Virus record (IMG/VR): IMGVR_UViG_3300045988_007243
Source: a virus
Taxonomy: Duplodnaviria > Heunggongvirae > Uroviricota > Caudoviricetes
DNA: 64,000 nucleotides
Strand: one strand, 5' to 3'
This document shows, in pieces, positions 18,098 through 45,738 of this stretch. The notes below the pieces were generated by a model that had not been told where the DNA came from, ran no database searches, and saw only the letters and a list, made by a program, of their open reading frames with translations. The stretch's first letter is position 1; the number at the start of each line of letters is the position of its first letter. A program made the translations under genes and the position numbers.

Positions 18098-18122
18098 AAA
18101 AAGACCTAAAAAGGTCTTTGCA
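18098..18122 (-). terminator. possible intrinsic terminator/hairpin
   Basis: AGACC-N5-GGTCT hairpin followed by a short U-tract on the minus strand. Confidence 0.3.
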
Positions 18123-18274: not shown

Positions 18275-18362
18275 CGGTAAGTAAAGGAGTCGAACCCTCA
18301 CCGTATCTCTACAGTGGCAACAGTTTTCAAGACTGTTTGGCTGCCATTAGCCGCTACCTACC
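18275..18362 (-). tRNA. tRNA-Ser (UGA), long variable arm
   Basis: Perfect anticodon stem acagt/actgt, loop gives UGA, 20-nt variable arm; CCA not encoded. Confidence 0.6.
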
Positions 18363-18375
18363 CCTAATAAGACTT

Positions 18376-18458
18376 TGGCATGGGACGGAGGAGTTGAACC
18401 CCTTTGAAACGGTTTTGGAGGCCGTTGCTCATGCCTTAGAGTCTTAACATCGTCCCAT
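18376..18458 (-). tRNA. tRNA, identity unresolved (possibly Trp CCA)
   Basis: CCA encoded, perfect acceptor atgggac/gtcccat, canonical T-loop; internal fold ambiguous, about 7 nt longer than class I. Confidence 0.4.
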
Positions 18459-18601
18459 ACTATAATTCGAAGCTCACCGTATTATCTCAACACTGTAAAG
18501 CCCCTTCTCAGATTATTTACATGTTCTGGAAAACATGAGATACAGACCACCTCCCTACAGGAAGACCCGCTTAGGTCGTCTAAGTAATCTGCTAACTAAA
18601 T

Positions 18602-18683
18602 TGGTCGAGGCGGCAGGACTCGAACCCGCATACTCCACTTACTCGGTTAACGGCGGTTTAGAAGACCGCTGAGATACGCCCCG
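18602..18683 (-). tRNA. atypical tRNA-like gene (anticodon hairpin reads UCU, Arg)
   Basis: CCA encoded, acceptor and T-arm canonical, perfect 5-bp hairpin with loop UCU, but no room for a normal D-arm. Confidence 0.35.
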
Positions 18684-18931
18684 TAATTATCTTTAAAGAC
18701 TCTCTTAGAAAGCCCTTAAAGATGCCCACCTTATTAATCATACCGTGGGCGAGTACGCCAAATTCTTTGATGAGGGATTGGAAGACCTCACTGGTGTTTA
18801 GCCTATCAAGCTACTGCCAGAAAAACATTGTCGTTTGCATTTATTTTAAATTTGCAAAATAGACGCTACGCAACGAAAACTAAGGTTAGTATAAAGTAGT
18901 CACATCTCAATGTCAACAACTTTATTGAAAT

Positions 18932-19007
18932 TGGTACTGGTAGGTGGAATCGAACCACCGATGTTCCCTTATCAGGGGAGTGTTATAACCTTCTTAACTA
19001 TACCAGC
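18932..19007 (-). tRNA. tRNA-Ile (GAU)
   Basis: Perfect T-stem ggtgg/ccacc, perfect D-stem, anticodon loop gives GAU. Confidence 0.6.
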
Positions 19008-19008
19008 T

Positions 19009-19085
19009 TGGAGGTTCAGATGGGAATCGAACCCACATTCATAGGGCTTATGAGACCCTTGCATTACCTTATCTGCGACTGAACC
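19009..19085 (-). tRNA. tRNA-Met (CAU) (or lysidine Ile)
   Basis: Perfect acceptor ggttcag/ctgaacc, anticodon stem with GGG/CCC, loop gives CAU. Confidence 0.6.
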
Positions 19086-19089
19086 ATAT

Positions 19090-19165
19090 TGGTAGAAGTG
19101 GAGGGATTCGAACCCATCGCCTGTCAGATTAAAAGTCTGCCGCATCACCATTCTGCTACACTTCC
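19090..19165 (-). tRNA. tRNA-Lys (UUU)
   Basis: CCA encoded, anticodon loop TTAAAAG(rc) gives UUU. Confidence 0.55.
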
Positions 19166-19170
19166 ATTAA

Positions 19171-19312
19171 ATTATCTTTGTAGATAAGCTACCCAGACTT
19201 GCTTAAGGTCTGTAGCGATGTGCCTTTTTGGGTTTAAATCTAGAATTTACCCTTTCACCCTTTGTGGTCGCATACTCACAGGTAAGCTTAATAACTTATC
19301 TACAAAGATAAT
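19171..19312. repeat. 18-bp perfect inverted repeat pair flanking a 106-bp spacer
   Basis: attatctttgtagataag at 19171-19188 is the exact reverse complement of cttatctacaaagataat at 19295-19312. Confidence 0.6.
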
Positions 19313-19365
19313 TACCAGACCGTTGTTTATCATCTTAAGTGCTACCATTACACCAACTCGACATC

Positions 19366-19390
19366 TGCCGAGTGAAGGAATCGAACCTTC
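19366..19390 (-). pseudogene. tRNA 3' fragment (acceptor + T-arm only)
   Basis: gccgagt + gaagg-AATCGAA-ccttc matches a tRNA 3' half but no matching 5' half follows. Confidence 0.35.
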
Positions 19391-19424
19391 GCCTTTTCTT
19401 TACCGAGAAATAGATTGTTTAAGT

Positions 19425-19452
19425 TTTGCTGTAAACGGTCTTCTGTAAATTT
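19425..19452. repeat. 28-bp repeat tttgctgtaaacggtcttctgtaaattt, copy 1
   Basis: Identical 28-mer at 19993-20020; diverged copies at 19512-19536 and 20161-20187. Confidence 0.6.
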
Positions 19453-19619
19453 GTTGAGCCAGACCAAGTTTTAAATTTTTCAAAATTAAATTGGCTTGAA
19501 ATTTTAAGTAACTTGCTGAATTTGGTCTTCTGCTCCTTTAAAGAATACTCGTAAGAACCCTTTAAGGGAGGGGCTAAATAGCCCTCTCAAAACATCATTT
19601 TGAAATACTTATTATAAGT

Positions 19620-19696
19620 TGGCGGCTACGATGAGACTTGAACTCACATCATCTCCCGTGACAGGGGAGTATTTTCTCCAGTTAAACTACATAGCC
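19620..19696 (-). tRNA. tRNA-Asp (GUC)
   Basis: CCA encoded, perfect anticodon stem ctccc/gggag, loop gives GUC. Confidence 0.65.
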
Positions 19697-19701
19697 TTTA
19701 T

Positions 19702-19789
19702 TGGTGTGCCGTGTAGGAGTCGAACCTACCGAGTCTCAATGACAAGGGATTTACAGTCCCCACCGCTACCATCTACGGGATAACGACAC
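19702..19789 (-). tRNA. tRNA-Tyr (GUA), long variable arm
   Basis: Perfect T-stem, anticodon loop gives GUA, about 15-nt variable arm. Confidence 0.6.
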
Positions 19790-19801
19790 ATTTTAATTTA
19801 T

Positions 19802-19857
19802 ATTCAGGATAAGGACTTGCACCTTACAAATCGGTGAGCAATCGCTTCTCTCCTAAA
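19802..19857 (-). pseudogene. truncated tRNA-like element (56 nt)
   Basis: Acceptor-like ends pair, perfect T-stem taagg/cctta around a mutated T-loop ACTTGCA; too short for a tRNA. Confidence 0.3.
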
Positions 19858-19859
19858 TT

Positions 19860-19936
19860 TGGCGGTTAGTCAGGGATTCGAACCCTGTGCCATTCGCTTA
19901 ACAGGCGACCGCACATACCTTATGTGCTTCCTAACC
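19860..19936 (-). tRNA. tRNA-Asn (GUU)
   Basis: Perfect T-stem caggg/ccctg, D-stem gcac/gtgc, anticodon loop gives GUU. Confidence 0.55.
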
Positions 19937-19992
19937 ATGTTTAGTATTACCAGACCGTATCTTTCAATTTTTTCCGCTAAAAATTTCATTAA

Positions 19993-20020
19993 ATTTGCTG
20001 TAAACGGTCTTCTGTAAATT
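19993..20020. repeat. 28-bp repeat tttgctgtaaacggtcttctgtaaattt, copy 2
   Basis: Identical to 19425-19452; abuts the 3' end of the tRNA at 20020-20096. Confidence 0.6.
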
Positions 20021-20096
20021 TGGAGGCGGGTGAAGGAGTCGAACCTGCCGATACCATGCTAATGAGACATGTGAGACGCCCTTTCTCTATACCCGC
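20020..20096 (-). tRNA. tRNA-Met/Ile2 (CAU), second CAU species
   Basis: CCA encoded, anticodon stem catgc/acatg, loop gives CAU; position 1-72 unpaired. Confidence 0.5.
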
Positions 20097-20188
20097 AATT
20101 CTTAATGACCAGACCAAATCTCTTCTTTGTCCGATTTACCTTCAGATGAATAAGATTAAGTTTGCTGTAATTGGTCTTCTGTCAAAAC

Positions 20189-20266
20189 TGGCGTTCCAGA
20201 AGGGATTTGAACCCTCAAATATCCACTTTGAAAGAGTGGTGACTATACCATTTTGTCTACTGGAAC
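20189..20266 (-). tRNA. tRNA-Glu (UUC)
   Basis: Perfect acceptor gttccag/ctggaac, perfect anticodon stem ccact/agtgg, loop gives UUC. Confidence 0.65.
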
Positions 20267-20273
20267 ATTAATT

Positions 20274-20350
20274 TGGTCTCTGTTGGAGGACTTGAACCTC
20301 CGGCCTTACCGCCCCAAACGGAACGCTCTACCAAGCTGAGCTAAACAGAG
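20274..20350 (-). tRNA. tRNA-Pro (UGG)
   Basis: Perfect acceptor ctctgtt/aacagag, perfect T- and D-stems, anticodon loop gives UGG. Confidence 0.6.
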
Positions 20351-24013: not shown

Positions 24014-25143
24014 TTAAAGCAAAGACTTACCCAGACTTCAAAGAATTTGTAAAAGGTTTCGTTGCAAATGTAAAGGCTGGTAAGAGATATGATTTTAGAA
24101 CATATCAAGAAGCTATTTTACCGCTAACCTATAGCTCATATTGGCCTGAAGCTGATATTGCAGAGGTTGCGAAGTTTGACTACAAACCAGACTACAAAGT
24201 TCCTTTTAGTGATGAACTCCTTTACAGTGTTGGTGCACAGATGAGGACTGCTGATTTCTTCATGGATTTACAGTATGCAATCATCAATGGTAAAGACGTT
24301 GACACAGTGTATTGTGAATGGTTGGCAAGAGTTAAGCCGTTCTCAATGTTGAATGCTAAGTTGAAGGATGCTATTAAGCCACCAGCAATTACTCAGCAAC
24401 CAACAGGTCAAACAGTCAATGAGGGTGGCACACTTACTCTAAGCATTCTAGCAACTAACGCCACTGGATATCAGTGGAAGAAGGATGGTGAGGATATCCC
24501 TAGTGCCAATTCTGCAACTTACACAAAACAGTCAGTAGCACCTTCTGACGCTGGTTCATACACTTGTGTTGTATCTGGAGAGGGTGGAACAAGTGTTACC
24601 TCAGATGCAGCAACAGTTACTGTGAACGCACTACCTGTGATTACCAAGCAACCTTCTAATCAGACTATTAATGAAGGTGGAAACATCAACTTAGCAGTTA
24701 CTGCAACAGGTGCGACAGGTTACCAGTGGAAGAAAGATGGCTCTGACATTCCTTCAGCGACAAACGCTACCTATAGCAAGTCTGGTGCTCTGCCAGCAGA
24801 TGCAGGTTCATACACTTGCGTTGTAACAGGTGCAGGTGGTTCTGTTACTTCTAGCCCTGCAACAGTTACTGTGAATGCACTTCCGGTAATCACTCAGCAA
24901 CCAACCAATCAAGAAATCACTGAAGGTGAGACCTTAACACTGAATGTTGTGGCAACAGGTGCGACAGGTTATCAGTGGAAGAAAGGTGAGGAAGTCATCC
25001 CAGATGCAACTGCTGCAACTTACACCAAAGAAGGTGCAACCGCTGCTGATGCAGGAAGCTACACCTGTGTAGTGACTGGCGCAGGTGGCTCTGTAACATC
25101 TAATGCAGCAACAGTTACAGTTAACCCAGCAGGGGAGGCGTAA
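24010..25143 (+). CDS. Ig-like domain protein (three tandem Ig-like repeats)
   Basis: 377 aa; three ~83-aa repeats each with YQWKKDG...DAGSYTCVV...ATVTVN (Ig-like signature). Confidence 0.6.
   Translation: MIKAKTYPDFKEFVKGFVANVKAGKRYDFRTYQEAILPLTYSSYWPEADIAEVAKFDYKPDYKVPFSDELLYSVGAQMRTADFFMDLQYAIINGKDVDTVYCEWLARVKPFSMLNAKLKDAIKPPAITQQPTGQTVNEGGTLTLSILATNATGYQWKKDGEDIPSANSATYTKQSVAPSDAGSYTCVVSGEGGTSVTSDAATVTVNALPVITKQPSNQTINEGGNINLAVTATGATGYQWKKDGSDIPSATNATYSKSGALPADAGSYTCVVTGAGGSVTSSPATVTVNALPVITQQPTNQEITEGETLTLNVVATGATGYQWKKGEEVIPDATAATYTKEGATAADAGSYTCVVTGAGGSVTSNAATVTVNPAGEA
24391..25140 (+). repeat. three tandem ~249-bp coding repeats (Ig-like domains)
   Basis: Units at about 24391-24639, 24640-24885, 24886-25140 with strongly conserved motif blocks. 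Confidence 0.6.
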
Positions 25144-30293: not shown

Positions 30294-31960
30294 ATAAAAT
30301 TTTATCGGTTGTCCCAACCTCTGGGTCACCATCATATGTGAATAAAATATCTATCCTTCTTAGCAACCTTCTTAATCTTACTCTCTATATAGTTATATAG
30401 TACTATATAGTATCTTAGTAACTATCTAGTGGTCTTAATAGCCCTCTGTATAACCCTTCTAACAAGCCCTCTAACAAACCTTCTTAACAACCTATACAAT
30501 CACCTTAACCATCTCTCTACACCTTCTTAGAAGCCCCTATACACCTCTTAATCTCTATGTCAGCTATGATACCCTCTATAGGTGTTCACTAGGAAATACT
30601 AAGCCTCTATATAGACTGTTTTAACAAACTTAACAGGAATATCTTTACAGACCTTATCTCACAAGGTCTAACACGGTACTAACAAGGTATCTTATAAGCC
30701 TGTTTATGCCTGTATTTTTAAAAGACTGTATAGGTAATTATTCAGAATTTTAAAATTTTTATAAAATAGGACTATCAAGTCATTTTTTAGGGTCTTTGAA
30801 GGGACTCAAAAATATCTGATTAGGGTGTATATCTGCTTGGTAGCCCTTAACAGCTCCCTTACAAGTACTTTGCAAAATTTTAAAATATCCTTAACAATCT
30901 CTTAACAGTTCTCACATCTTCTTAACAACTCTTCAAAGGTCTTAACAGATTCTTAACAGAACTAACAAGGCTGTAACAGTTTCTTAACAGTTGATACATA
31001 GGCTTTACAGAATCTTAACAGATGACTAATAAGAGCTAACAGGGATTGGTAGATGATTCGGATGAAGCATCCTCATAACAATACCAATTAGTTAATTTTA
31101 AAGAGTTATTTTGTTAAGATAATTAACAAGTTTCTAACAAGTATTTAATCTTTTTAACAAGCTATTAACATGGTCACTACTCTTTTCTTATCGTTCCCTC
31201 TCCCTCTTAGTGATTCTCTAAACATACCTCTTAAAAGCTCTCTATAGCTCTTTATAAGCCCTTTTAAGCCTCTTCCTAGTAATTACACCCCAACTGTACA
31301 GACACCTTTTTATAGAGCTTTACAGGAGCTTTTAAGGCTATGTCAAAGACTCTTACAAGGCTTTTACGTGGTTTTAACAGAGATTTAACAAGGGGCTAAC
31401 AAGTTGCTAACAAGTGCCTTAAAAGCATAACTATGTAGGGATTGTTAAGAATTTGTTAAGAAAATGTTAAGGGGGCTAGCATTTACGTAACTTTATAGCT
31501 TCTTTTACGTAACTTTGAAGCAACTTTATAGCCCCTATAACATACTTTTAAGACACTAACAATAGGATTCGATAGATTCCTATCTCATAGCCCTTTTTAG
31601 TAGTTCACAAGAATACTAACGAGATAATAAAGCTTATAACCTTATAAGATTCTTTTAAGCCTCTATAAAGCCCTGTAAAGAGCTTTTTAGGGTGAGTTAA
31701 TGCAATCCCTTAAGTTATATTGATAAGGCTGTTATAGAGCTTTATAGAGCGTTTTAGTGGTTGCCCTTCCCTTTCGGGTTATGGGCTTATATTTAAGTTG
31801 ATTTGATAAGAGGTTATAGAGTAAACTATAGAGTTATTGCTTTTAAGGTATGGGATAGATTCTGGAAAGGAAAGGGAAAGGATTGTATAGGGATTCGATA
31901 AGACGTAAAAAAGCCCCTATGAGAAGGAGCTTTGAAGGTATCTGGGGCTATTTAGCCCCG
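30290..31960. repeat. ORF-free region dense in TTAACA(A/G) iteron-like motifs
   Basis: No ORF of 60 aa or more on either strand over about 1.7 kb; dozens of TTAACA(A/G) in both orientations, including phased arrays. Confidence 0.6.
31375..31475. promoter_or_regulatory. convergent 11-bp-phased iteron arrays (candidate origin/operator)
   Basis: Four direct (T/C)TAACA units at exact 11-bp spacing (31375-31418), then three inverted TGTTAAG units at 11-bp spacing (31443-31475). Confidence 0.45.
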
Positions 31961-31969
31961 TTGCGTCGA

Positions 31970-32218
31970 TTAGTTGTAACCTTGTTTATTGTAGTACAGT
32001 GAGATAATCAAGTCACCCCAGTAATGATAGTGATGCTCGTCGTTTAATGCCTCTTTTACAGCGTCTTTCCAGAAGTCATCAGTAGGGTTATAATCTGGGA
32101 TAACTTGCTTGATAACTGTCTTCACTAATGAAAAACACTCATCAGTTCCACCAATATCAAATTTAACGTCCAGAGTATAACAGCCATAAGCATTGACAGT
32201 TGCGCGGATAGTTGCCAT
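31970..32218 (-). CDS. small hypothetical protein (cassette gene 1)
   Basis: 82 aa; start preceded by conserved TAAACTAGGAGATTCAAAA leader. Confidence 0.5.
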   Translation of the reverse strand: MATIRATVNAYGCYTLDVKFDIGGTDECFSLVKTVIKQVIPDYNPTDDFWKDAVKEALNDEHHYHYWGDLIISLYYNKQGYN

Positions 32219-32221
32219 TTT

Positions 32222-32290
32222 TGAATCTCCTAGTTTAAGGACTTTACTTAGTGGGGAAGGCCATTCCCTCCCCGTTGATGAGTAATTTAC
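32222..32290 (-). promoter_or_regulatory. repeated leader element, family A (GC hairpin + RBS)
   Basis: ggggaaggccattccctcccc hairpin plus conserved aaggactttacttagtgg and RBS; copy 1 of 5. Confidence 0.5.
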
Positions 32291-32550
32291 TGCATGTTGG
32301 CGTATGTTGCAAGCCTTTTTTCGTTGTATTTTGTAAGAATCTCACAAGATAAAACATCGTAATTTGTAATAGCGTTGCCTTTGTCGAGGTCAAAGAATCC
32401 AAACGCTTTACCGTCTTTGAATCCTACAACTTCATAAGACTCTTTGATGATTTCACCATTGAACAAATCGCTTTCAATGCGGTGTAATAATGCTACGTTT
32501 TCTTTGTCGGTTGCGATTTGTAAAAGTGTGGTCAATTCTACGTTTTCCAT
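32287..32550 (-). CDS. small hypothetical protein (cassette gene 2)
   Basis: 87 aa. Confidence 0.45.
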   Translation of the reverse strand: MENVELTTLLQIATDKENVALLHRIESDLFNGEIIKESYEVVGFKDGKAFGFFDLDKGNAITNYDVLSCEILTKYNEKRLATYANMQ

Positions 32551-32560
32551 CTTGATAACT

Positions 32561-32620
32561 CCTAGTTTAAGGACTTTACTTAGTAGGGAGGTTATCCCTC
32601 CCGTTGATTAGTAATTTACT
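32561..32620 (-). promoter_or_regulatory. repeated leader element, family A variant
   Basis: gggaggttatccctccc hairpin with conserved flanks. Confidence 0.45.
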
Positions 32621-32770
32621 TGTTTTGATATCTGATTGCAAGCAATTTTTTAAGTTTATCTATAAAGAATCTTTTAAGTTAATCCCTTTTAGATAAACCC
32701 CCTCGAACAAAGTTACCAATGTCAAGGGGCATTGTCAACACTTTTTTAAAAGTTTTTTGTAAGTTATTGA

Positions 32771-33112
32771 TTAACTGATGAATATTTTTTCAGGTTTTAC
32801 ATAGCTGATACGCTGACTTTTTAGCAAGTCATCCCAGATTATTGCCGCAATATGAGAATAACCAGACTCACGCAAGAGCTTCATTGCTTTACATCTCGTT
32901 TCAAATCTGGTTGCGTAGTACTCACTATTCAAAACAGTTTTCTTCCCTTCGTTATCTGTATGGATAATCTGCATTACTTGAAAGGGGCTGACATCCTCGC
33001 CTTTGTTCCATTGCTCAAAGTATTTTAGGCACTGCATAGGTGACATCTTATCGCTTACTTGAGTTGACCAAGATGCGCCAGCTTTATCGGTAATTACGGT
33101 TACATAAGCCAT
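32771..33112 (-). CDS. small hypothetical protein (cassette gene 3)
   Basis: 113 aa; conserved leader upstream. Confidence 0.45.
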   Translation of the reverse strand: MAYVTVITDKAGASWSTQVSDKMSPMQCLKYFEQWNKGEDVSPFQVMQIIHTDNEGKKTVLNSEYYATRFETRCKAMKLLRESGYSHIAAIIWDDLLKSQRISYVKPEKIFIS

Positions 33113-33184
33113 TTTTGAATCTCCAGTTTAGGATTTTATTTAGTGGGGAAGGTCATCCCCTCCCCGTTGATTGACAATTTACAG
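33113..33184 (-). promoter_or_regulatory. repeated leader element, family A
   Basis: ggggaaggtcatcccctcccc hairpin with conserved flanks. Confidence 0.5.
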
Positions 33185-33201
33185 ATTTTTATCAGGCTTG
33201 T

Positions 33202-33435
33202 CTAGTCTTTTTCAATGATAATTTCATATTGACCGTCAACACTGTCGAAATAGATTCCGTCGTCATCTTCTGTCTTAAAGTAACATTGTATATCATCACT
33301 GGCGGGATAGTCTTGCCTTGCTATCTGGCAAACTTGAATAGCATTTTCTTTACTTCCTGTAAACTCTTCAAGCCCTTTAAAGTCACATGAATGGCCATTA
33401 CAAATTGAGAGGATGAGATAAACGGTTGTAAGCAT
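33202..33435 (-). CDS. small secreted/membrane-anchored protein (hypothetical)
   Basis: 77 aa with hydrophobic N-terminus. Confidence 0.4.
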   Translation of the reverse strand: MLTTVYLILSICNGHSCDFKGLEEFTGSKENAIQVCQIARQDYPASDDIQCYFKTEDDDGIYFDSVDGQYEIIIEKD

Positions 33436-33444
33436 GATTTAAGC

Positions 33445-33475
33445 CCTCTAAAAGCCCCTACAAGGGGCTGATTAG
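33445..33475 (-). terminator. possible intrinsic terminator
   Basis: agcccc-ttgta-ggggct hairpin followed by TTTTAG on minus strand. Confidence 0.35.
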
Positions 33476-33501
33476 TGTTTATAAGGTGATTGCATAGGTT
33501 T

Positions 33502-34044
33502 TTAGAAAAAGCTCTTTAAATCCTCTTCTGCAATGTTTCCTGTCAGTGTGTCCATGATGTCACAAAAAACCTGAATACTGTCGGACTGTTGAACACTTTT
33601 AGCAAGAAGTTCCAGAGACTTATCAAGATAGTTTAAATTTGGGTTATCCAGTGAAGGAAGACAAAAAGGCGAAAACATAGCATTAAATTCAGTGATGTAA
33701 ACCTTTTTAATCCAATTTAAATCGAAATATTCTGTAAAACTTGCCACACTCGACATATTATCACAAGAATAATCATCATTTAACTCATCTTCTGGAATAT
33801 CAAGTTCCAAGATGACAATGTTTTGAGTTTTCATCTGAAAAGCTGCGGTGATAGTGGCATTGCCCAGAGCTTGTTGTATACCTTCAGATGCTATCTCTTC
33901 CGCATCGTCGCCATAGATTTTATTTTCTGGATAAACGTAAAAATTGCCGTCCATATCCGAACAATTCCATGCACCTGATGGCTTATCACCGTTATTAATC
34001 AGGTTGAGGAAATTTTCTTGAGTAGTTCCGTGATAACATTTCAT
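33502..34044 (-). CDS. hypothetical protein
   Basis: 180 aa, acidic; conserved leader upstream. Confidence 0.45.
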   Translation of the reverse strand: MKCYHGTTQENFLNLINNGDKPSGAWNCSDMDGNFYVYPENKIYGDDAEEIASEGIQQALGNATITAAFQMKTQNIVILELDIPEDELNDDYSCDNMSSVASFTEYFDLNWIKKVYITEFNAMFSPFCLPSLDNPNLNYLDKSLELLAKSVQQSDSIQVFCDIMDTLTGNIAEEDLKSFF

Positions 34045-34140
34045 TTTTAGAATCTCCAGTTTAGGATTTAGTGGTAAAGCTCTTTATCTGAGGCTTAAGT
34101 TATCAACTTTTAAGCCCCTTGTAAAGTACTTTATTTGTTA
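34045..34140 (-). promoter_or_regulatory. repeated leader element, family B (ggcttaa...ttaagcc hairpin)
   Basis: Conserved ggatttagtggtaaagctctttatctg + hairpin + ccttgtaaagtactttatttgtta. Confidence 0.5.
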
Positions 34141-34334
34141 TTTTTGACAACTTTTAAAACTGCAAGATAGCCTAAGCAATAAGAATCACCGAAGAGAGTC
34201 CTACCCATGAAAGAATCCTCTTTGATATCCTTTGCAGTGACAGTTTTTTCTACGCCGTGGGAAAGGACTATATCACCAACTTTGATATCTTTGATGTGTG
34301 TAGTTTCAATGGTTAAACCATTAATAATAGCCAT
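34131..34334 (-). CDS. small hypothetical protein
   Basis: 67 aa; conserved leader upstream. Confidence 0.4.
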   Translation of the reverse strand: MAIINGLTIETTHIKDIKVGDIVLSHGVEKTVTAKDIKEDSFMGRTLFGDSYCLGYLAVLKVVKNNK

Positions 34335-34433
34335 TTTCAGAATCTCCAGTTTAGGACTTTATTTAGTGGGGAAGGTCATTCCCTCCCCGTTGATGTGTAA
34401 TTTAGACTATCTAAAAATCAGTGTCAACAAAAA
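34335..34433 (-). promoter_or_regulatory. promoter + leader cassette, family A (TTGACA-17-TAAATT, GC hairpin, RBS)
   Basis: Minus strand: -35 TTGACA (34422-34427), 17-bp spacer, -10 TAAATT (34399-34404), then hairpin and RBS. Confidence 0.55.
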
Positions 34434-34437
34434 TTTT

Positions 34438-34842
34438 TTATAGTTCTGCATAAATTGCATCGCAGATATTACGGAAATCGTGATTTGCCAAATTACGCTG
34501 CAACCAAGTGGCGAAAAAGTCAGCGATTGCAAAGTTAGCATCATACTCGACAGATAACCACACTTTAACAGCAAATCGGAACATTTTCAAATCTAACTCT
34601 TTATTCATTACCTTAGATTTGCCTAACATGTCGGCCATTTCATGTTGTGCACCGTCTAGCGTGATACCTGCTGCAACGTCAGTCAATGAGTTTTTTACGC
34701 TTTCAACGTCTAAGATAACACTTTGAATCTTCCCAATAATGTTTTGCAGTGTTTTATCTGGTGCTGATGACGTGATAACATTAATCCGGTTAACGGTCAA
34801 ACGTGCTTTTAAAATTGATAATTCACGGTTATTAATAGCCAT
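34438..34842 (-). CDS. hypothetical protein
   Basis: Start moved to ATG at 34842 (MAINNRELS) directly after the conserved RBS; ORF-track start 34857 lies within the repeated leader. Confidence 0.45.
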   Translation of the reverse strand: MAINNRELSILKARLTVNRINVITSSAPDKTLQNIIGKIQSVILDVESVKNSLTDVAAGITLDGAQHEMADMLGKSKVMNKELDLKMFRFAVKVWLSVEYDANFAIADFFATWLQRNLANHDFRNICDAIYAEL

Positions 34843-34935
34843 TTTTAAGTTCTCCAATTTAGGATTTAGTGGTAAAGCTCTTTATCTGGGGCTTACTTTA
34901 TCGAACTATAAGCCCCTTGTAAAGTACTTTACATT
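34843..34935 (-). promoter_or_regulatory. repeated leader element, family B (near-identical to 36483-36580)
   Basis: Perfect 8-bp hairpin ggggctta...taagcccc; about 95 bp near-identical to the copy at 36483-36580. Confidence 0.55.
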
Positions 34936-35201
34936 AAATGCAGTTTTTTGCCTTTTACTATAATGTAACTCGATGCGCTATTGCTTTGCACATCTTGATA
35001 AATTCTGCGTAAACGTCCTTCGTAGTATACTTTCCAACTGGTTGGAATCTTTTTCCCGTATCCTGTAGCAGTTTTTTGGAGTCCTGCAACTTGCCAATTT
35101 AAGATGTGTTGCTCAGCTTGTAAATCATCAAAGTGCATCACACCATTCACATAGTGACGCAGGGTTACGTTTAAAGTGCGACCGTTGTTAGTAGTATACA
35201 T
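34929..35201 (-). CDS. small hypothetical protein
   Basis: 90 aa; conserved leader upstream. Confidence 0.4.
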   Translation of the reverse strand: MYTTNNGRTLNVTLRHYVNGVMHFDDLQAEQHILNWQVAGLQKTATGYGKKIPTSWKVYYEGRLRRIYQDVQSNSASSYIIVKGKKLHLM

Positions 35202-35227
35202 TTTCAGAATCTCCTAGTTTAAGGATT

Positions 35228-35386
35228 TTATTTTGACAGTTCACTAATTAAGACATCAAAGATTATATCATTATCTGCTACAGTTGCAACACCAGTGATA
35301 TAATCAATTTCTAAGATAACAACAACTTTCGTACATAAACCGTCATCTATATCATTCCAGACAACTTTATCACCTGCACAAAACAT
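35228..35386 (-). CDS. small hypothetical protein (about 52 aa, below ORF-track cut-off)
   Basis: ATG at 35386 directly preceded by the conserved leader; hand translation MFCAGDKVVWNDIDDGLCTKVVVILEIDY... Confidence 0.35.
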   Translation of the reverse strand: MFCAGDKVVWNDIDDGLCTKVVVILEIDYITGVATVADNDIIFDVLISELSK

Positions 35387-35484
35387 TTTTGAATCTCCTA
35401 GTTTAAGGACTTTATTTAGTGGGGAAGGTCATTCCCTCCCCGTTGATGTGTAATTTAATCTATCTAAAAACCAGTGTCAACAGT
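35387..35484 (-). promoter_or_regulatory. promoter + leader cassette, family A (TTGACA-17-TAAATT, GC hairpin, RBS)
   Basis: -35 TTGACA (35475-35480), 17-bp spacer, -10 TAAATT (35452-35457); near-identical to 34335-34433. Confidence 0.55.
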
Positions 35485-35809
35485 TTTGTTTTCGTTTGCT
35501 CAATTCTTGAACAATTACAGCGTAGTAGTCTTTTAAGTCACTGACATTTAAAGCATTTATCAGAGAATTATAATCATCAACTAACTGAAAATTATCTTTG
35601 AAGATGTCACTTATCTGATAGGTTTTCGCTTTATATCTGAAGCTCATCTCTAGCCGCTTTATTTGCTCATCACTGAGGCGCCCTAGAAAGCTTTCTACAA
35701 GGTTATTACTAACCTGCTGCGTAATTGCCTTACTTGCTAGATTATAGGCTTTATATGCCTTATATAGCGCGAAAATGGCAATGATTGCAGTGATACCAGT
35801 CATTAACAT
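35477..35809 (-). CDS. membrane protein (hypothetical)
   Basis: 110 aa with N-terminal transmembrane helix; GAGGAAACACC RBS. Confidence 0.45.
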   Translation of the reverse strand: MLMTGITAIIAIFALYKAYKAYNLASKAITQQVSNNLVESFLGRLSDEQIKRLEMSFRYKAKTYQISDIFKDNFQLVDDYNSLINALNVSDLKDYYAVIVQELSKRKQNC

Positions 35810-36099
35810 GGTGTTTCCTCTTTACGTGATACTTTGCCATTTACAGTTATCTCATAGGATTCTAATAAATCGCTTTTAGACTTTACAGGACTTTTAAAAG
35901 TATTATCGTATATATTAACTTGTAATACAGGTTTTTTATACTCCCTGCAACTGTTCCATAAGCAAATCACTACACGACGACCTTTTATTTTGCCGTGTAA
36001 CCATTCCATAACATCATGCCTATTCCTTGATGTCTCGATAAAATCAATTTTGTTGAGTAATTTGCTCAAATTTTCACGCACTTGATTTGATAATTTCAT
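35803..36099 (-). CDS. small hypothetical protein
   Basis: 98 aa; conserved leader upstream. Confidence 0.4.
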   Translation of the reverse strand: MKLSNQVRENLSKLLNKIDFIETSRNRHDVMEWLHGKIKGRRVVICLWNSCREYKKPVLQVNIYDNTFKSPVKSKSDLLESYEITVNGKVSRKEETPC

Positions 36100-36200
36100 T
36101 TTAGAATCTCCTAGTTTAAGGTCTTTATTTGATAAAGCTCTTTATCTGGGGCTTAAGGTATCAGCTTTTAAGCCCCCTGTAAAGTACTTTATTTGTTAAT
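36100..36200 (-). promoter_or_regulatory. repeated leader element, family B
   Basis: ggggcttaa-N11-ttaagcccc hairpin with conserved flanks. Confidence 0.5.
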
Positions 36201-36482
36201 TTTCAGCTTTGCATAACTTCTCATTGTACGAATGGGGGATGTTAATGCTACGCGTCTAATGTATGCCTTTTTCGTGTATACATTTGTCTTCCCGATAGTG
36301 TTTACACATGTAAAAAGGTTTATCGGTGAATTTTTTAACTTCAACTGTTTATCAACCTTCACGCCCCACCTTACAGCAGATTGTTTTCCGTTGTCAACCA
36401 CTTTCCCGCATAACTTTTTAGCCATAACGCGAGCGTCATCACGAGTCTTTGCAGTAATTACAACGTTTTTGATAATAGCCAT
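36189..36482 (-). CDS. hypothetical protein
   Basis: Start moved to ATG at 36482 (MAIIKNVV) after the conserved RBS. Confidence 0.45.
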   Translation of the reverse strand: MAIIKNVVITAKTRDDARVMAKKLCGKVVDNGKQSAVRWGVKVDKQLKLKNSPINLFTCVNTIGKTNVYTKKAYIRRVALTSPIRTMRSYAKLKINK

Positions 36483-36580
36483 TTTTAAGTTCTCCAATTT
36501 AGGATTGAGTGGTAAAGCTCTTTATCTGGGGCTTACTTTATCGAACTATAAGCCCCTTGTAAAGTACTTTATTTGTTAAT
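36483..36580 (-). promoter_or_regulatory. repeated leader element, family B (near-identical to 34843-34935)
   Basis: About 95 bp near-identical to 34843-34935 including perfect hairpin. Confidence 0.55.
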
Positions 36581-36953
36581 TTTGAAGATAGTTACATAAC
36601 CATCGCTGCCGATGATTTGTGATGCTCCAGCTTTTTCTACTTGATAGCCCATATTTTCAAGATGGTAAACAGCATCATCATAACCATATGCACCGCCCTG
36701 ATAACGTCTCTTATCACATCTTACTAATACCTTTCCACGTCCTGCCAGTGCATTTAGTACGGCTTTTTCACTTGAAAGTGTACCATCTAACATGGTTGCC
36801 GTGTAATGGTTGATTCTATTCCCGTTTACATCATACTTAAAATTGAATGCGTGAACAACGATAATGTTACCTTTAAAATTTTCATCAAGTGACTTCTCCA
36901 GTGCGTTGCGAAAGTTGTCTTTGTTGATGAATTTAGGTGCACGATATGCCATT
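36569..36953 (-). CDS. hypothetical protein
   Basis: Start moved to ATG at 36953 (MAYRAPKF) after the conserved leader; 128 aa. Confidence 0.45.
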
Positions 36954-37199
36954 TTTGAATCTCCTAGTTTAAGGTTGTTGAGCTTGTCGCCCCGTCTGAT
37001 GCAAATATTAGATAACACAGTTCAAAGAGTCAAGAAAATTTTTAAAAATATTTTTTGCAAAATTGTAATGAAACGGGTGCGCGCGACTACCACAAAACAG
37101 AACTACAATCAAGAATTATTTTTCAATCCGCTACAAATTTTTCTGTTGACTTTTATTTTCAGATGTGGTAGCCTTGTGAGAAATGGCGACAGTCCCACC

Positions 37200-37400
37200 T
37201 ACCCCCACCTACCTGCACAATTCTAAAATGATTTTTCTTGCCCGACCTGATTTTTCTCTGCACGTTTTGAAAATGAAAAAACCCTTTGGAGATTACCTGC
37301 ACAGTTTGAAAATGAATTTTCTCTTTGGAGTTCAAAATTTTCTCTATAGATTCCTCTACAGAACTCTACCTGCACAAATCTGAAATGAAAAAGCCCTCCT
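37200..37400. repeat. direct repeats TACCTGCACA...GAAAATGA in non-coding region
   Basis: TACCTGCACA occurs at least three times (about 37211, 37294, 37366), each followed by (T/C)TGAAAATGA within about 15 bp. Confidence 0.5.
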
Positions 37401-37461
37401 TACCTGAAAAATTTACCAGATAAGAAAGGCTTAGTCTATTGTGAATATACTACGAAGTTTC

Positions 37462-38247
37462 TTAGTTCTTTGCGTCTAAGAAGGTAAGTTCTGGTGAAGA
37501 GAAGATTAACTCAATATCCTCATCAGTTCTTGCATAGATATAAGCATCTGCATCACTGCCAAATGTTACTGCAATTCTGTGATTGCTCTTCGACAGGTGG
37601 GTAACTAGAGCGTTACTCAGAGACATCTTCTCAACCGGAGGGTTACTTTGATGTATCTTACCTTTTCTTCGTCTGAAGAGGGTAACTGCATCATTAGTGA
37701 ACACTACTACACCTGCAAAGTATTCTGGTTCACAGTAGTTCTTCCAACCTGAGAGTAACTTGTGGTACATCTCTCCTTCATAGACATATAGATAAACATC
37801 TACACTCTTCATCACCTGATTGATGATAACTGTGACGGCTTGAGGGTCAAGTCCACCGATACCTGCACCAATCATAGGTAAACCAACTTTCTTCAACTGG
37901 TTAACTTCACAGTATCTGTTAAGCTGTTTCAAAGATGACTCTAAAGCACTGTATCGGGCATCTTTACCAGTATGAAGTTGGGTGTAAAGGTTAGCTATAC
38001 GGCCTTGTTTTAAACGTGCTACAGAGAAATTACCTAGTAAATTTTCACAGGGTTTGTGACGAATGCCACCTGCAAACAGGTAAACTTCTGTGTCAGTATC
38101 ATACACTTTTGGATAACGCTTAGAAATAGTTGCTGCAATACCTGCACCCATGAAATTCATACAGTTGCAACCATGACCAATGATATCAAATTTGCCTTTA
38201 TCAAATGCGTCAAAGATATCACCTTTGATGATTTTTACAATACCCAT
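37462..38247 (-). CDS. macro domain protein (ADP-ribose binding/hydrolase-like) with unknown C-terminal domain
   Basis: 261 aa; N-terminal IIKGDIFDA...DIIGHGCNCMNFMGAGIAATI matches macro-domain signature. Confidence 0.6.
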   Translation of the reverse strand: MGIVKIIKGDIFDAFDKGKFDIIGHGCNCMNFMGAGIAATISKRYPKVYDTDTEVYLFAGGIRHKPCENLLGNFSVARLKQGRIANLYTQLHTGKDARYSALESSLKQLNRYCEVNQLKKVGLPMIGAGIGGLDPQAVTVIINQVMKSVDVYLYVYEGEMYHKLLSGWKNYCEPEYFAGVVVFTNDAVTLFRRRKGKIHQSNPPVEKMSLSNALVTHLSKSNHRIAVTFGSDADAYIYARTDEDIELIFSSPELTFLDAKN

Positions 38248-38448
38248 TTAACATCTCTCCCAAGATTCTTTATCTTCTGAAGGTTTTACACGTTGCCCTT
38301 CGTGGTCTACCCAGATACACCCACAACCTTCACAGATTACTGGCATTGCATAACCAGCTTTAAAGTCATCTTCAGTGATAAGACCTTTTAAGTCACCTGT
38401 ATCACGTCCGAACATTTCGATAGAACAGTCTTTACAGAAGTCAGCCAT
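38248..38448 (-). CDS. small Cys-rich (zinc-ribbon-like) protein
   Basis: 66 aa with CxxC...CxxC spacing. Confidence 0.4.
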   Translation of the reverse strand: MADFCKDCSIEMFGRDTGDLKGLITEDDFKAGYAMPVICEGCGCIWVDHEGQRVKPSEDKESWERC

Positions 38449-38460
38449 ATAATATATACC

Positions 38461-38688
38461 TTATAGTTCAGTTTCTCGTAATTCTTTACCTTCATCATAG
38501 AAGCATTTATAGAATGTGTCTATAGAGATTCTGGCAAAGGTGAGGTCTTCAAAGTATTCCTCTGGAGTTGTCCCTGTAAAACTAAAACTGTCGAGGCTGT
38601 AAAATGGTATCACTGTGTCGTGACTCACGAAAACACATGCTGACGTGACTTCTCCAGTATCTTTGTCAATTACCTCTAGAGCTTTCAT
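38461..38688 (-). CDS. hypothetical protein
   Basis: 75 aa ORF. Confidence 0.35.
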   Translation of the reverse strand: MKALEVIDKDTGEVTSACVFVSHDTVIPFYSLDSFSFTGTTPEEYFEDLTFARISIDTFYKCFYDEGKELRETEL

Positions 38689-38989
38689 AGCTTACCTTTT
38701 CGGTTAGTTCATATAAATCAACATGCTCAATACTGTCGATGTTGATATCAATCTTTTTGAAACGTTCTATCACTTCGTTGTCAGTCATCCATATCAGACA
38801 CCAATGATTCTGGATGGATTCTTCAAGAAGGTCAACACAATCTTTAAAAGTTTTTGTATCACTTCTTGTTCCTACCACTGCGATTGTTCCATATAACCAC
38901 TTACCGTTGCCATAGGTCACTTGTGCTACACCAACCTCTTTATCTTTCTCATAGTAAACGGCTACAAAATCTCTTCCATTAATCTGCAT
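38666..38989 (-). CDS. hypothetical protein
   Basis: 107 aa ORF. Confidence 0.35.
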   Translation of the reverse strand: MQINGRDFVAVYYEKDKEVGVAQVTYGNGKWLYGTIAVVGTRSDTKTFKDCVDLLEESIQNHWCLIWMTDNEVIERFKKIDINIDSIEHVDLYELTEKVSYESSRGN

Positions 38990-38991
38990 AG

Positions 38992-39261
38992 TTACTTCCT
39001 CGTTTTAAGAACTGCTAAGATTTCTTTAGAGTCTGGTAAGAACCATGTGTAGTGATTCTCTTTGATTTCTGGATGAGTGTCAACCTTTATTTTGCACTCT
39101 TTACCAACATGCTTAAGTTGTGCTGTGACACCTTGCATAAAGATATGGCACATCACATTATCCATAATGGTTGGTGAGAAATCAACCCGCATATAAGTTT
39201 CTTTTGGTCGTGGTAGCAGTAAGTACCCTTCTACATAGAAAGTATCTTCGTTCTCTGTCAT
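38992..39261 (-). CDS. hypothetical protein
   Basis: 89 aa ORF. Confidence 0.35.
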   Translation of the reverse strand: MTENEDTFYVEGYLLLPRPKETYMRVDFSPTIMDNVMCHIFMQGVTAQLKHVGKECKIKVDTHPEIKENHYTWFLPDSKEILAVLKTRK

Positions 39262-39768: not shown

Positions 39769-39792
39769 TTAACAATCTCCTAAAATGAAAAA

Positions 39793-39815
39793 GGCTCCCG
39801 AAGGAGCCTGTATCT
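39793..39815 (-). terminator. intrinsic terminator
   Basis: Minus RNA: aggctccttcgggagcct hairpin followed by TTTTTCATTTT. Confidence 0.55.
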
Positions 39816-41517: not shown

Positions 41518-41577
41518 TGGTTCCCCTGTTTAGTTTATCGTGACATCAATTATACAGCACTCTGCACAAAATACAAA

Positions 41578-41608
41578 TAAAAAAGGCCGCCGAAGCAGCC
41601 TTTTAAGA
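41578..41608 (-). terminator. possible intrinsic terminator
   Basis: aaggc-N10-gcctt hairpin followed by T-rich run on the minus strand. Confidence 0.35.
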
Positions 41609-45695: not shown

Positions 45696-45713
45696 AATCT
45701 TCTCCAGAAATTA

Positions 45714-45738
45714 AAAAGGCTCCCGTAGGAGCCTCTTA
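45714..45738 (-). terminator. intrinsic terminator after NAMPT-like gene
   Basis: Minus RNA: aggctcctacgggagcct hairpin followed by TTTTTAATTT. Confidence 0.55.

What the first reader, a model, noticed from the sequence alone, without database searches (positions are those of the whole stretch)
34843..36580. Two near-identical ~95-bp cassettes extend into the coding starts of downstream genes
The family B copies at 34843-34935 and 36483-36580 are nearly identical over about 95 bp. In the ORF track both downstream genes appear to begin MENLKMAI, which means the duplication includes leader and start region. This is the signature of recent recombination between cassettes (gene shuffling or duplication).
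Basis: seen in the sequence. Interest (0 to 1): 0.45.

Follow-up and report, generated by a model that had tools for sequence, protein, structure and literature searches.

The report
Repeated promoter–hairpin cassettes in Felix O1-like phage
The two near-identical ~99-bp stretches are copies of a repeated intergenic control cassette (promoter, RNA hairpin, ribosome-binding site) in the early-gene region of a Felix O1-like phage; such cassettes also serve as recombination points for gaining, losing and moving small genes, as "PeSL" cassettes do in T4-type phages.

Summary
Window 34833-34931 and 36473-36571 (genes on the minus strand) match at 98 of 99 bases; no shuffle of the window gave such a pair. 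One detail is wrong: "MENLKMAI" comes from a TTG that overlaps the Shine-Dalgarno GGAG. The real starts are the ATGs (MAI...), so only 10 coding bases are shared, and the two proteins are unrelated.

The window is a Felixounavirus. The repeat is one of four "B" cassettes. Five "A" cassettes and eleven shared ribosome-binding modules lie with them, all within 32219-36974. Each B cassette starts at the upstream gene's stop codon. It holds TTTACA-17 nt-TAnnnT embedded in a conserved two-tier hairpin, then a strong ribosome-binding region.

Across 33 related genomes, 164 B cassettes precede at least 15 gene families. Gene gains and losses between relatives are bounded by cassettes. The focal pair is more alike within genomes than between them (p≈0.004). 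One phage record (DE7) carries both crossover junctions expected from exchange between these two cassettes, but a misassembly could give the same order.

Verdict: a PeSL-like regulatory and recombination cassette, not previously described as such in this phage group. It is a new member of a known kind, of moderate interest.

The parts
34833..34931 (-). Focal copy 1: the full block of identity. It runs from the stop codon of the upstream gene (34929-34931), through the B cassette (intergenic 34843-34928), to the first 10 nt of the downstream gene.
36473..36571 (-). Focal copy 2: the same 99-nt block, 98/99 identical to copy 1 (intergenic 36483-36568).
34918..34923 (-). -35-like hexamer TTTACA of copy 1 (copy 2: 36558-36563). 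It lies in the 5' arm of the outer stem.
   Evidence: These columns were fixed by the search anchor, so their invariance is by construction.
34895..34900 (-). -10-like hexamer TAAAGT of copy 1 (copy 2: 36535-36540), 17 nt after the -35. The T and A lie in the hairpin loop; the last T lies in the 3' arm.
   Evidence: 158 of 169 family members have TAnnnT at exactly 17 nt. The T, A and final T carry 2.0, 2.0 and 1.9 bits, and the three positions between them 0.1-0.5 bits.
34873..34931 (-). Two-tier hairpin of copy 1 (copy 2: 36513-36571). Outer stem UAAAGUACUUUA / UAAAGAGCUUUA, a 3x3 internal loop, inner stem GGGGCUUAU / GUAAGCCCC, and an 11-nt loop.
   Evidence: The 89-nt cassette RNAs fold at -24.2 kcal/mol, z -4.2 and -4.9. 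95.6% of cells pair, against about 55% when partners are slid by one column. RNAalifold predicts the same two helices. G.U cells outnumber A.C cells 165 to 28.
34843..34863 (-). Ribosome-binding module of copy 1, CCTAAATTGGAGAACTTAAAA, with GGAG at 34852-34855, 9 nt before the ATG at 34840-34842 (copy 2: 36483-36503).
34438..34842 (-). Downstream gene of copy 1: 134 aa, MAINNR..., phrog_4327, unknown function. It is the ortholog of Felix O1 ORF20.
   Evidence: early expression of ORF20
36189..36482 (-). Downstream gene of copy 2: 97 aa, MAIIKN..., phrog_5089, unknown function. It is unrelated to the 134-aa protein and absent from REP9.
34045..34130 (-). Third B cassette, 83% identical to the focal copies, with a different loop (-10 TAACTT) and one G.U pair in the stem. 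It lies upstream of gene 33502-34044.
36100..36188 (-). Fourth B cassette: a B hairpin joined to the other ribosome-binding variant (CCTTAAACTAGGAGA). ASO1A, CRP22, SUT_S820 and Felix O1 carry an extra 170-aa gene at this site.
35387..35480 (-). A cassette: TTGACA-17-TAAATT, then hairpin GGGGAGGGAAUGACCUUCCCC, then the ribosome-binding module. Other A copies are at 34335-34437, 33113-33204, 32551-32641 and 32219-32312.
   Evidence: annotated as promoter plus terminator in ASO1A
32219..36974 (-). The variable early-gene region that holds every cassette element in the window: 4 B cassettes, 5 A cassettes and 11 ribosome-binding modules, with 13 small genes of unknown function.

Best explanation
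The two stretches are copies of a modular intergenic cassette that punctuates the early, variable region of Felix O1-like phages. Read on the sense (minus) strand, a B cassette has five parts:
1. The stop codon of the upstream gene.
2. A host sigma-70-type promoter (TTTACA, 17 nt, TAnnnT) with an A+T-rich stretch upstream.
3. A two-tier GC-rich hairpin that encloses that promoter. The complete hairpin can therefore form only in RNA that reads through from upstream.
4. A conserved ribosome-binding module.
5. The start codon.

Proposed working. Host RNA polymerase starts a fresh early transcript for the downstream gene just after the hairpin's 3' arm. In transcripts arriving from upstream, the hairpin acts as an intercistronic attenuator or an RNA end-protecting or processing element.

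Each cassette also offers about 90-100 bp of near-identical DNA in direct orientation. Ordinary homologous recombination between cassettes therefore does two things. It homogenises them by gene conversion, and the window's pair is a freshly homogenised example. It also deletes, inserts, swaps and possibly transposes the small genes lying between them.

Shown: the repeat, its architecture, conservation of the promoter and hairpin signatures, the comparative recombination footprints, and concerted evolution. Inferred: promoter activity, the hairpin's precise RNA role, and the circle intermediate.
For: Identity and chance.

Genome context: a Felixounavirus, with 237 related records.

Architecture: all four B intergenic regions are 86-89 nt and begin at the upstream stop codon.

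Promoter:
- TTTACA-17-TAAAGT is called at both focal copies.
- 158 of 169 copies have TAnnnT at 17 nt.
- The T and A of the -10 are invariant in 93 distinct sequences inside a loop that otherwise varies.
- A cassettes carry TTGACA-17-TAAATT, kept even where it overlaps coding sequence.
- In Felix O1, ORF16 and ORF20, the two genes directly downstream of its B repeats, peak at 5 min after infection.

Hairpin: the cassette RNAs fold at -24.2 kcal/mol with z -4.2 to -4.9. 95.6% of cells pair, with G-C to U-A compensation in 14 sequences. RNAalifold agrees. The G.U excess over A.C points to sense-strand RNA.

Recombination:
- 15 of 17 synteny-break clusters lie at intergenic regions, P=5e-7.
- Three 'two cassettes here, one there' events were verified base by base, including a chimeric cassette in REP9.
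- 164 cassettes precede at least 15 gene families in 33 genomes, with loop variants shuffled among genes.
- The concerted-evolution test gave p=0.0036.
- In Felix O1 the ORF20 cassette carries a loop identical to that of its ORF16 cassette.
- DE7 has both crossover junctions and a circularly permuted, relocated block flanked by identical A cassettes.
Against: - No experiment here shows promoter activity. A 9-of-12 match to the sigma-70 consensus is common by chance in this A+T-rich DNA (29 found against 21 expected).
- The hairpins lack a U-tract, and the terminator scan does not call them. Classical intrinsic termination is therefore doubtful.
- Covariation is modest (RNAalifold covariation term -0.63). 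Many sequences are related, so the counts are not independent events. Part of the outer stem is also the -35 box, which could explain its conservation without any RNA role.
- Breakpoints at gene boundaries are also what selection for intact genes alone would produce.
- The DE7 order is a single record. It equals the alternative path through an assembly graph holding these repeats. The junction was absent from IMG/VR and from the metagenome contigs, although the wild-type control pattern was found 10 times.
- None of the other sampled genomes shows the simple 1,640-bp deletion between the focal copies.
Confidence: 0.72

Rival explanations
1. The B cassette is only an RNA element and holds no promoter. 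On this view it is an intercistronic two-tier hairpin that is cut by RNase III, as T7 intercistronic sites are, or that protects the upstream mRNA's 3' end. Genes behind B cassettes would be transcribed by read-through from A-type or other promoters.
For: The shape fits: an 11-bp lower stem, a 3x3 internal loop and a 9-bp upper stem give about 20 bp, running from the stop codon to just before the ribosome-binding module. G.U wobbles favour sense-strand RNA. The promoter match is only 9 of 12. That T7 RNase III sites have this shape is from my own knowledge, not tested here.
Against: The TA at a fixed 17 nt from TTTACA is invariant inside a loop that otherwise varies freely. That is the signature expected of a -10 element and is not needed for a generic hairpin. 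The Felix O1 genes directly behind B repeats are in the earliest expression class, whereas ORF17 and ORF19 peak later. The two roles also do not exclude each other.
Confidence: 0.15
2. The near-identity reflects only strong purifying selection on an old duplicated regulatory sequence. No exchange is going on between copies.
For: Most cassette positions are highly conserved across 33 genomes. The same loop variant is found upstream of the same two genes in many relatives.
Against: The freely varying loop positions are identical in the focal pair but differ from the other two B copies in the same genome. Within-genome pairs are more alike than cross-genome pairs. Felix O1 and contig 2706796096 each show derived states shared by both of their own copies. 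REP9 has a chimeric cassette.
Confidence: 0.05
3. The cassettes are sites for a dedicated, phage-encoded site-specific recombinase or nuclease, an integron-like cassette system, rather than passive homology for general recombination.
For: The GGGG...CCCC hairpin and the TAAAGnnCTTTA inverted-repeat boxes are conserved. The authors of the PeSL work raised the same speculation. The DE7 block looks like excision followed by reintegration.
Against: All ten neighbouring small proteins tested have no known function in PHROGs. The rest of the genome was not screened for recombinases. Junction overlaps span the whole cassette or only the ribosome-binding module rather than one fixed core. Homology of 90-100 bp is enough for phage or host general recombination (stated).
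Confidence: 0.05
4. The repeat is an assembly or duplication artefact of this sequence.
For: None specific.
Against: The same two cassettes, in the same positions, occur in many independently sequenced phages. The Felix O1 genome paper reported them as direct repeats.
Confidence: 0.01

Closest known systems
PeSLs (promoter-early stem-loops) of T4-type phages: RB49/phi1, T4/PST, KVP40/nt-1 (PMC2839356, PMC4122927)
   Same: Both are intergenic composites of about 100 bp. Each joins a sigma-70-like early promoter, an A+T-rich upstream stretch and a GGGG...CCCC stem-loop whose position relative to the promoter varies; the published subclasses include 'between -35 and -10' and 'downstream of -10', matching B and A here. 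Both occur in many same-orientation copies within variable regions full of small genes of unknown function. In both, gains, losses and replacements between close relatives are bounded by the motifs, and a circle excision and reintegration model has been proposed.
   Different: The phage lineage is different (Ounavirinae, about 87 kb, not T4-like). The resemblance is in architecture; sequence similarity to PeSLs was not compared. Here the hairpin is two-tiered, starts at the upstream stop codon and encloses the whole promoter. The cassette is fused to a conserved ribosome-binding module and reaches the first codons. Promoter activity, terminator activity and mini-circles were shown experimentally for RB49 and phi1 but not here.
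Felix O1 '57-bp and 39-bp direct repeats' (Whichard et al. 2010, PMC3185647)
   Same: These are the same elements. The 57-bp repeat is the core of the B cassette and the 39-bp repeat is the A promoter, located between genes 15/16 and 19/20, and between 18/19 and 20/21.
   Different: The paper only listed them as direct repeats. It stated that secondary promoters and read-through of terminators were not understood, and gave no structure, function or recombination role.
Phage T7 intercistronic RNase III processing hairpins, such as R1.1 (own knowledge)
   Same: Both are two-tier stems of about 20 bp with an internal loop, lying between cistrons of early polycistronic RNA.
   Different: T7 sites do not enclose a promoter and are not known as repeated recombination substrates. 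Cleavage has not been tested here.
Halovirus HF2 intergenic repeats that carry promoters (PMC8707807; abstract seen)
   Same: Both are repeated intergenic sequences in a virus genome that act, or are proposed to act, as promoters.
   Different: HF2 is an archaeal virus with unrelated motifs. The abstract mentions no hairpin and no recombination role.

Membership tests
PeSL-type regulatory cassette | A sigma-70-like early promoter within a repeated intergenic motif of about 100 bp | tested here: met
   TTTACA-17-TAAAGT is called at both copies. 158 of 169 copies have TAnnnT at 17 nt. The -10 T and A are invariant in a variable loop. This is sequence-level evidence only.
PeSL-type regulatory cassette | A stable stem-loop, typically GGGG...CCCC, adjacent to or overlapping the promoter | tested here: met
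   The 89-nt cassette RNAs fold at -24.2 kcal/mol, z -4.2 and -4.9. 95.6% of cells pair across 93 sequences. RNAalifold gives the same structure.
PeSL-type regulatory cassette | [quoted passage not shown] | tested here: met
   The stretch AAAATTAACAAATAAAGTAC upstream of copy 2 is 17/20 A+T. It overlaps the last codons of the upstream gene and is shared by three of the four B copies. This comes from direct reading; no statistical test was done.
PeSL-type regulatory cassette | Many copies clustered in a variable region of small genes of unknown function | tested here: met
   4 B cassettes, 5 A cassettes and 11 ribosome-binding modules lie only in 32219-36974. Up to 9 B copies occur per related genome. 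The neighbouring genes have no known function.
PeSL-type regulatory cassette | Gains, losses and replacements between close relatives are bounded by the motifs | tested here: met
   15 of 17 break clusters; REP9, SUT_S820 and Felix O1 verified at sequence level.
PeSL-type regulatory cassette | Promoter and terminator activity shown in reporter assays | not testable with these tools
   There is only indirect support: Felix O1 ORF16 and ORF20 peak at 5 min. No U-tract follows the hairpin.
PeSL-type regulatory cassette | Formation of mini-circles by exchange between neighbouring cassettes | not testable with these tools
   The DE7 gene order is what circle excision (B x B) plus reintegration (A x A) would give. 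It is one record and could be a misassembly, and it was not replicated.
PeSL-type regulatory cassette | Host genome is a T4-type phage (the scope of the published family) | tested here: not met
   The window and all relatives are Felixounavirus, subfamily Ounavirinae. PeSLs are defined by architecture rather than sequence, so this limits the claim to 'PeSL-like'.
Intrinsic (Rho-independent) terminator | A GC-rich hairpin followed directly by a U-tract | tested here: not met
   The terminator scan calls neither A nor B hairpins. The tails are AGAUAAAG... and ACUAAAUAAAG.... A canonical terminator is called at 37391-37432 for comparison.
RNase III processing site (T7 type) | A helix of about 20 bp with an internal loop, cleaved by RNase III | tested here: inconclusive
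   The shape fits, with 11 bp, a 3x3 loop and 9 bp. Cleavage cannot be tested here. There is no Rfam match.

The most novel reading that the evidence does not exclude
The cassettes may be more than passive homology. On this reading they form an active gene-block transposition system. Exchange between two B cassettes excises a circle of several genes, and that circle reinserts at another cassette. The conserved two-tier hairpin and its TAAAGnnCTTTA boxes may be recognised by a phage protein that promotes this. The DE7 genome would then be a natural product: a circularly permuted block of at least three genes (MYTTNN, MAIIKN, MLMTGI) moved about 2.5 kb and flanked by identical A cassettes. That would extend the PeSL mini-circle mechanism beyond T4-type phages and supply a fixed genomic example of it.
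Probability: 0.2. Interest if true: 0.65.

Novelty: new member of a known kind. Interest (0 to 1): 0.4.

Why it matters
Felix O1-like phages are widely used for Salmonella and E. coli typing, biocontrol and therapy, yet how their early genes are transcribed is unresolved. The Felix O1 genome paper says so explicitly.

Recognising these repeats as promoter, hairpin and ribosome-binding cassettes does three things. It gives a concrete and testable map of early transcription units. It explains why the small early genes of unknown function, candidates for host-takeover or anti-defence roles, differ so much between otherwise similar phages. It also shows that the 'regulatory cassette as recombination linker' logic described for T4-type phages recurs in a separate myovirus subfamily (Ounavirinae).

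There are two practical consequences. The direct repeats predict spontaneous deletions and rearrangements in production stocks. They also offer natural landing pads for engineering.

Tried and rejected
- Rfam search of 31500-38500 at a permissive threshold found no relevant family.
- The terminator scan does not call the cassette hairpins, so I dropped 'intrinsic terminator' as the primary role.
- Gene duplication is rejected because the two downstream proteins share no similarity.
- I considered a second promoter or a T4 MotA-type middle promoter using the second TTTAC box with TAAATT. A spacer of 9-11 nt would put the start after the Shine-Dalgarno sequence, so I rejected it on sequence logic. 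That box turned out to be the 3' arm of the outer stem.
- I looked for natural genomes with the simple 1,640-bp deletion between the focal copies. None of the genomes sampled has it, and among 219 GenBank records only DE7 carries the junction, as part of a rearrangement.
- I tried to replicate the DE7 junctions elsewhere. There were no hits in IMG/VR for either junction and none in the metagenome contigs for the deletion junction. The wild-type control pattern was found 10 times.
- Literature searches for the motif sequence, and for PeSL-like descriptions in Felix O1-like phages, found only the uninterpreted repeat listing. The Bas63 essentiality preprint had nothing on these cassettes.
- My first extraction of hairpin sequences dropped a divergent subfamily through an indexing slip. 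I redid it.
Full report

Yes. On the + strand, window 34833-34931 and 36473-36571 are 99 nt with one mismatch, 34867 T against 36507 G. A 97-nt pattern allowing three mismatches hits only these two places, and none of 100 dinucleotide-preserving shuffles gave a hit.

All genes here are on the minus strand, so each repeat lies upstream of its gene. Identity begins exactly at the stop codon of the upstream gene. It ends 10 nt into the downstream gene, at ATGGCTATTA.

**2. The 'MENLKMAI' start is an ORF-calling artefact.**

The TTG lies inside TTGGAGAACTTAAAAATG, so it overlaps the Shine-Dalgarno GGAG, which sits 9 nt before the ATG. In CRP22, HY02 and DE7 the spacer is one base shorter, which puts the TTG out of frame. 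Relatives annotate the ATG-started genes. The ATG-started proteins align with their PHROG profiles from profile position 1.

The two proteins, 134 aa and 97 aa, have no detectable similarity. This is therefore a duplicated intergenic cassette and not a duplicated gene. The same ATGGCTATTA also opens gene 34131-34334, which sits behind a different cassette type. Six of the 15 gene starts listed begin ATGGCn. Part of the shared 'MAI' may therefore belong to a favoured translation-start context.

**3. What genome this is.**

The region matches 237 phage records, essentially all of them Felix O1-like myoviruses of the genus Felixounavirus. The best are about 90% identical over the whole 3.5 kb, and ASO1A is 96% identical over part of it.

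The Felix O1 genome paper already lists two 57-bp direct repeats between genes 15/16 and 19/20. It also lists 39-bp repeats between genes 18/19 and 20/21. These are the core of the present cassette and of its sister type. The paper gives no interpretation and says that secondary promoters and temporal control are not understood.

**4. Anatomy.**

The window holds four B cassettes: 34045-34130, 34843-34928, 36100-36188 and 36483-36568. It also holds five 'A' cassettes and eleven copies of a shared ribosome-binding module, CCT(T)AAAYT(A)GGAGA. All are on the minus strand and confined to 32219-36974.

A B cassette read on the sense strand is: TAA (upstream stop) AGTAC-TTTACA-17 nt-TAAAGT-AAGCCCC-AGATAAAGAGCTTTAC-CACTAAATCCTAAATTGGAGAACTTAAAA-ATG.

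Folding shows a two-tier hairpin. The outer stem pairs UAAAGUACUUUA with UAAAGAGCUUUA. It is followed by a 3x3 internal loop, the inner stem GGGGCUUAU/GUAAGCCCC, and an 11-nt loop. The 89-nt cassette RNAs fold at -24.2 kcal/mol with z-scores of -4.2 and -4.9.

The -35-like hexamer lies in the outer 5' arm. The -10-like hexamer straddles the loop and the inner 3' arm. A transcript started at this promoter would therefore lack the 5' half of the hairpin, and only read-through RNA from upstream can form the whole structure.

In A cassettes the order differs: TTGACA-17-TAAATT, then a GGGGAGGG...CCUUCCCC hairpin, then the same ribosome-binding module. ASO1A's depositors annotated A cassettes as promoter plus terminator.

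**5. Evidence from relatives for the promoter and the hairpin.**

An exact-word scan of IMG/VR returned 79 loci. About 30 contigs of Felixounavirus size (roughly 53-94 kb) carry up to nine copies each. Single hits elsewhere are about the number expected by chance.

Using an anchor that does not include the -10 or the 3' half, I collected 169 copies. Of these, 158 have TAnnnT exactly 17 nt after TTTACA.

In an alignment of 93 distinct hairpins, the T and A of the -10 carry 2.0 bits each and the final T 1.9 bits. The three positions between them carry 0.1-0.5 bits.

For the named structure, 95.6% of cells form standard pairs, against about 55% when partners are slid by one column. One outer-stem pair changes G-C to U-A in 14 sequences, and 41 sequences have a U.G wobble in the inner stem. 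RNAalifold predicts the same two helices on its own. G.U cells outnumber A.C cells 165 to 28, which fits an RNA made from the sense strand.

There are limits to this evidence:
- The covariation term is small.
- Many sequences are related, so the counts are not independent events.
- Columns 8-14 and 17-20 were fixed by my search anchor.
- 9-of-12 promoter matches are common in this A+T-rich DNA.
- The hairpins have no U-tract and are not called as terminators.
- Rfam has nothing.

One piece of experimental evidence exists. In Felix O1, ORF16 and ORF20 are the genes directly behind its two B repeats. Both are among the genes maximally expressed at 5 min.

**6. Evidence for recombination between cassettes.**

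(a) Synteny breaks. I aligned window 31000-39000 to six relatives. Of 17 distinct break clusters, 15 fall at intergenic regions, which occupy 28% of the region (binomial P=5e-7). Selection for intact genes would contribute to this pattern as well.

(b) Single cassettes in place of two. These cases are more specific, because here the aligned pieces overlap on a single cassette in one genome where the other genome has two cassettes flanking extra genes. I checked three base by base:
- REP9 has the MAYRAP gene, then one B cassette, then MKLSN, and lacks the 97-aa focal gene. Its cassette is chimeric. The hairpin resembles window copy 36483 and the ribosome-binding end resembles copy 36100.
- SUT_S820 lacks three genes between two A cassettes.
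- Felix O1 lacks three other genes between two A cassettes.

(c) Shuffling across genomes. In 33 genomes, 164 distinct B cassettes precede at least 15 gene families. The same loop variant precedes different genes, and the same gene carries different variants.

(d) Concerted evolution. In 17 genomes that have both focal genes, the two cassettes differ at 5.3 positions on average within a genome. Cross-genome pairings differ at 7.5 (permutation p=0.0036). The window's pair, with one difference, is at the low extreme. Felix O1 and contig 2706796096 each show derived states shared only by their own two copies.

**7. A possible natural crossover between exactly these two copies.**

I built the two junctions that a crossover between the focal copies would create and searched all GenBank phages with them. 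Only one record, vB_EcoM_DE7, contains either junction. It contains both, each as a single contiguous alignment.

Its gene order is: MAYRAP | B | MAINNR ... MAYVTV | A | MYTTNN | B | MAIIKN - MLMTGI | A | next gene. Compared with the usual order, a block has been circularly permuted and moved downstream. Each DE7 B cassette aligns to both window copies. The two A cassettes flanking the moved block are identical over more than 60 nt.

This is what excision of a circle by B x B exchange, followed by reintegration by A x A exchange, would give. That is the PeSL mini-circle model.

The caveat is serious. The same order is the alternative path through an assembly graph that contains these two repeat pairs. 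I could not replicate the junctions: IMG/VR had neither one, and the metagenome contigs lacked the deletion junction. A control pattern for the wild-type junction was found ten times. The other sampled genomes keep the usual neighbours.

**8. Comparison with known systems.**

The closest described system is the PeSL of T4-type phages. A PeSL is a composite of about 100 bp made of a strong sigma-70-like early promoter, an A+T-rich upstream stretch and a GGGG...CCCC stem-loop. The stem-loop's position defines five subclasses, which include 'between -35 and -10' and 'downstream of -10'. PeSLs are clustered in variable regions, bound the gene gains and losses between close relatives, and form mini-circles.

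Every sequence-level and comparative criterion is met here. The experimental criteria (reporter activity, circles) cannot be tested with these tools. The published scope, T4-type phages, is not met.

In the searchable literature I found no description of such cassettes in Felix O1-like phages beyond the bare repeat listing and generic promoter or terminator predictions. Papers in subscription journals were not searchable.

Features that seem particular to these cassettes:
- the two-tier hairpin that starts at the upstream stop codon and encloses the promoter;
- fusion to a conserved ribosome-binding module that reaches the first codons;
- extension of the homology into the last codons of the upstream gene, so that three unrelated genes end K-(I/N)-N-K-stop.

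**9. Verdict.**

The finding is a PeSL-like regulatory and recombination cassette in a phage group where it has not been described as such. That makes it a new member of a known kind, of moderate interest. The hairpin's exact RNA role and the reality of the DE7 rearrangement are the main open points.

Noticed in passing
window 36956-37461: A 506-nt intergenic region upstream of the cassette region holds four copies of a ~29-nt motif (+ strand TACCTGCACAnnTnnAAAATGA) at about 37210, 37258, 37294 and 37367. It also has a canonical terminator hairpin at 37391-37432 (-) and a TTGACT-17-TAATAT promoter-like site at 37005-37033 (-). These may be protein-binding iterons or a control region. Function unknown.
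   Followed up: partly
window 35228-35386 (-): A 52-aa gene with no PHROG family. Of the six relatives aligned, only ASO1A has it. It sits between an A cassette and a bare ribosome-binding module, with the flanks overlapping on that module in the other five genomes. It looks like a recently inserted gene cassette.
   Followed up: partly
window 36569-36583, 36189-36203, 34131-34145 (-): Three unrelated genes that lie upstream of B cassettes end with nearly the same codons (AAAATTAACAAATAA or AAAAATAACAAATAA, giving K-I/N-N-K-stop). The cassette homology, possibly an A+T-rich UP-like element, therefore reaches into the upstream coding sequence.
   Followed up: partly
locus L086 (vB_EcoM_DE7, OL825705.1) 3600-7710: The gene block MYTTNN / MAIIKN / MLMTGI is circularly permuted and relocated relative to all other relatives examined, with junctions inside B and A cassettes. 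It is either a real cassette-mediated transposition or a repeat-induced misassembly.
   Followed up: yes
window 14640-20350 (-): A cluster of 25 tRNA genes, including two tRNA-Met, two tRNA-Gln, two tRNA-Lys, two tRNA-Ser and three tRNA-Leu. A perfect 29-nt direct repeat lies between tRNAs at 19425-19453 and 19994-20022.
   Followed up: no
window 24547-25128 (+): Three tandem coding repeats of about 249 nt, 68-81% identical. This is the size of an Ig-like domain, probably in a structural or decoration protein.
   Followed up: no
window 39776-39809, 41568-41601, 45701-45734: Repeated AAAAAGGCTCCCGAAGGAGCCT-type hairpins with flanking A/T runs. They look like canonical, possibly bidirectional, terminators and are distinct from the cassette hairpins.
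   Followed up: no
window 33436-33501 (-): The one intergenic region in the cassette zone that has neither an A nor a B cassette. It carries a short hairpin, CAGCCCCUUGUAGGGGCU, followed by UUUUAG, which is closer to a true terminator, directly before gene 33202-33435.
   Followed up: no
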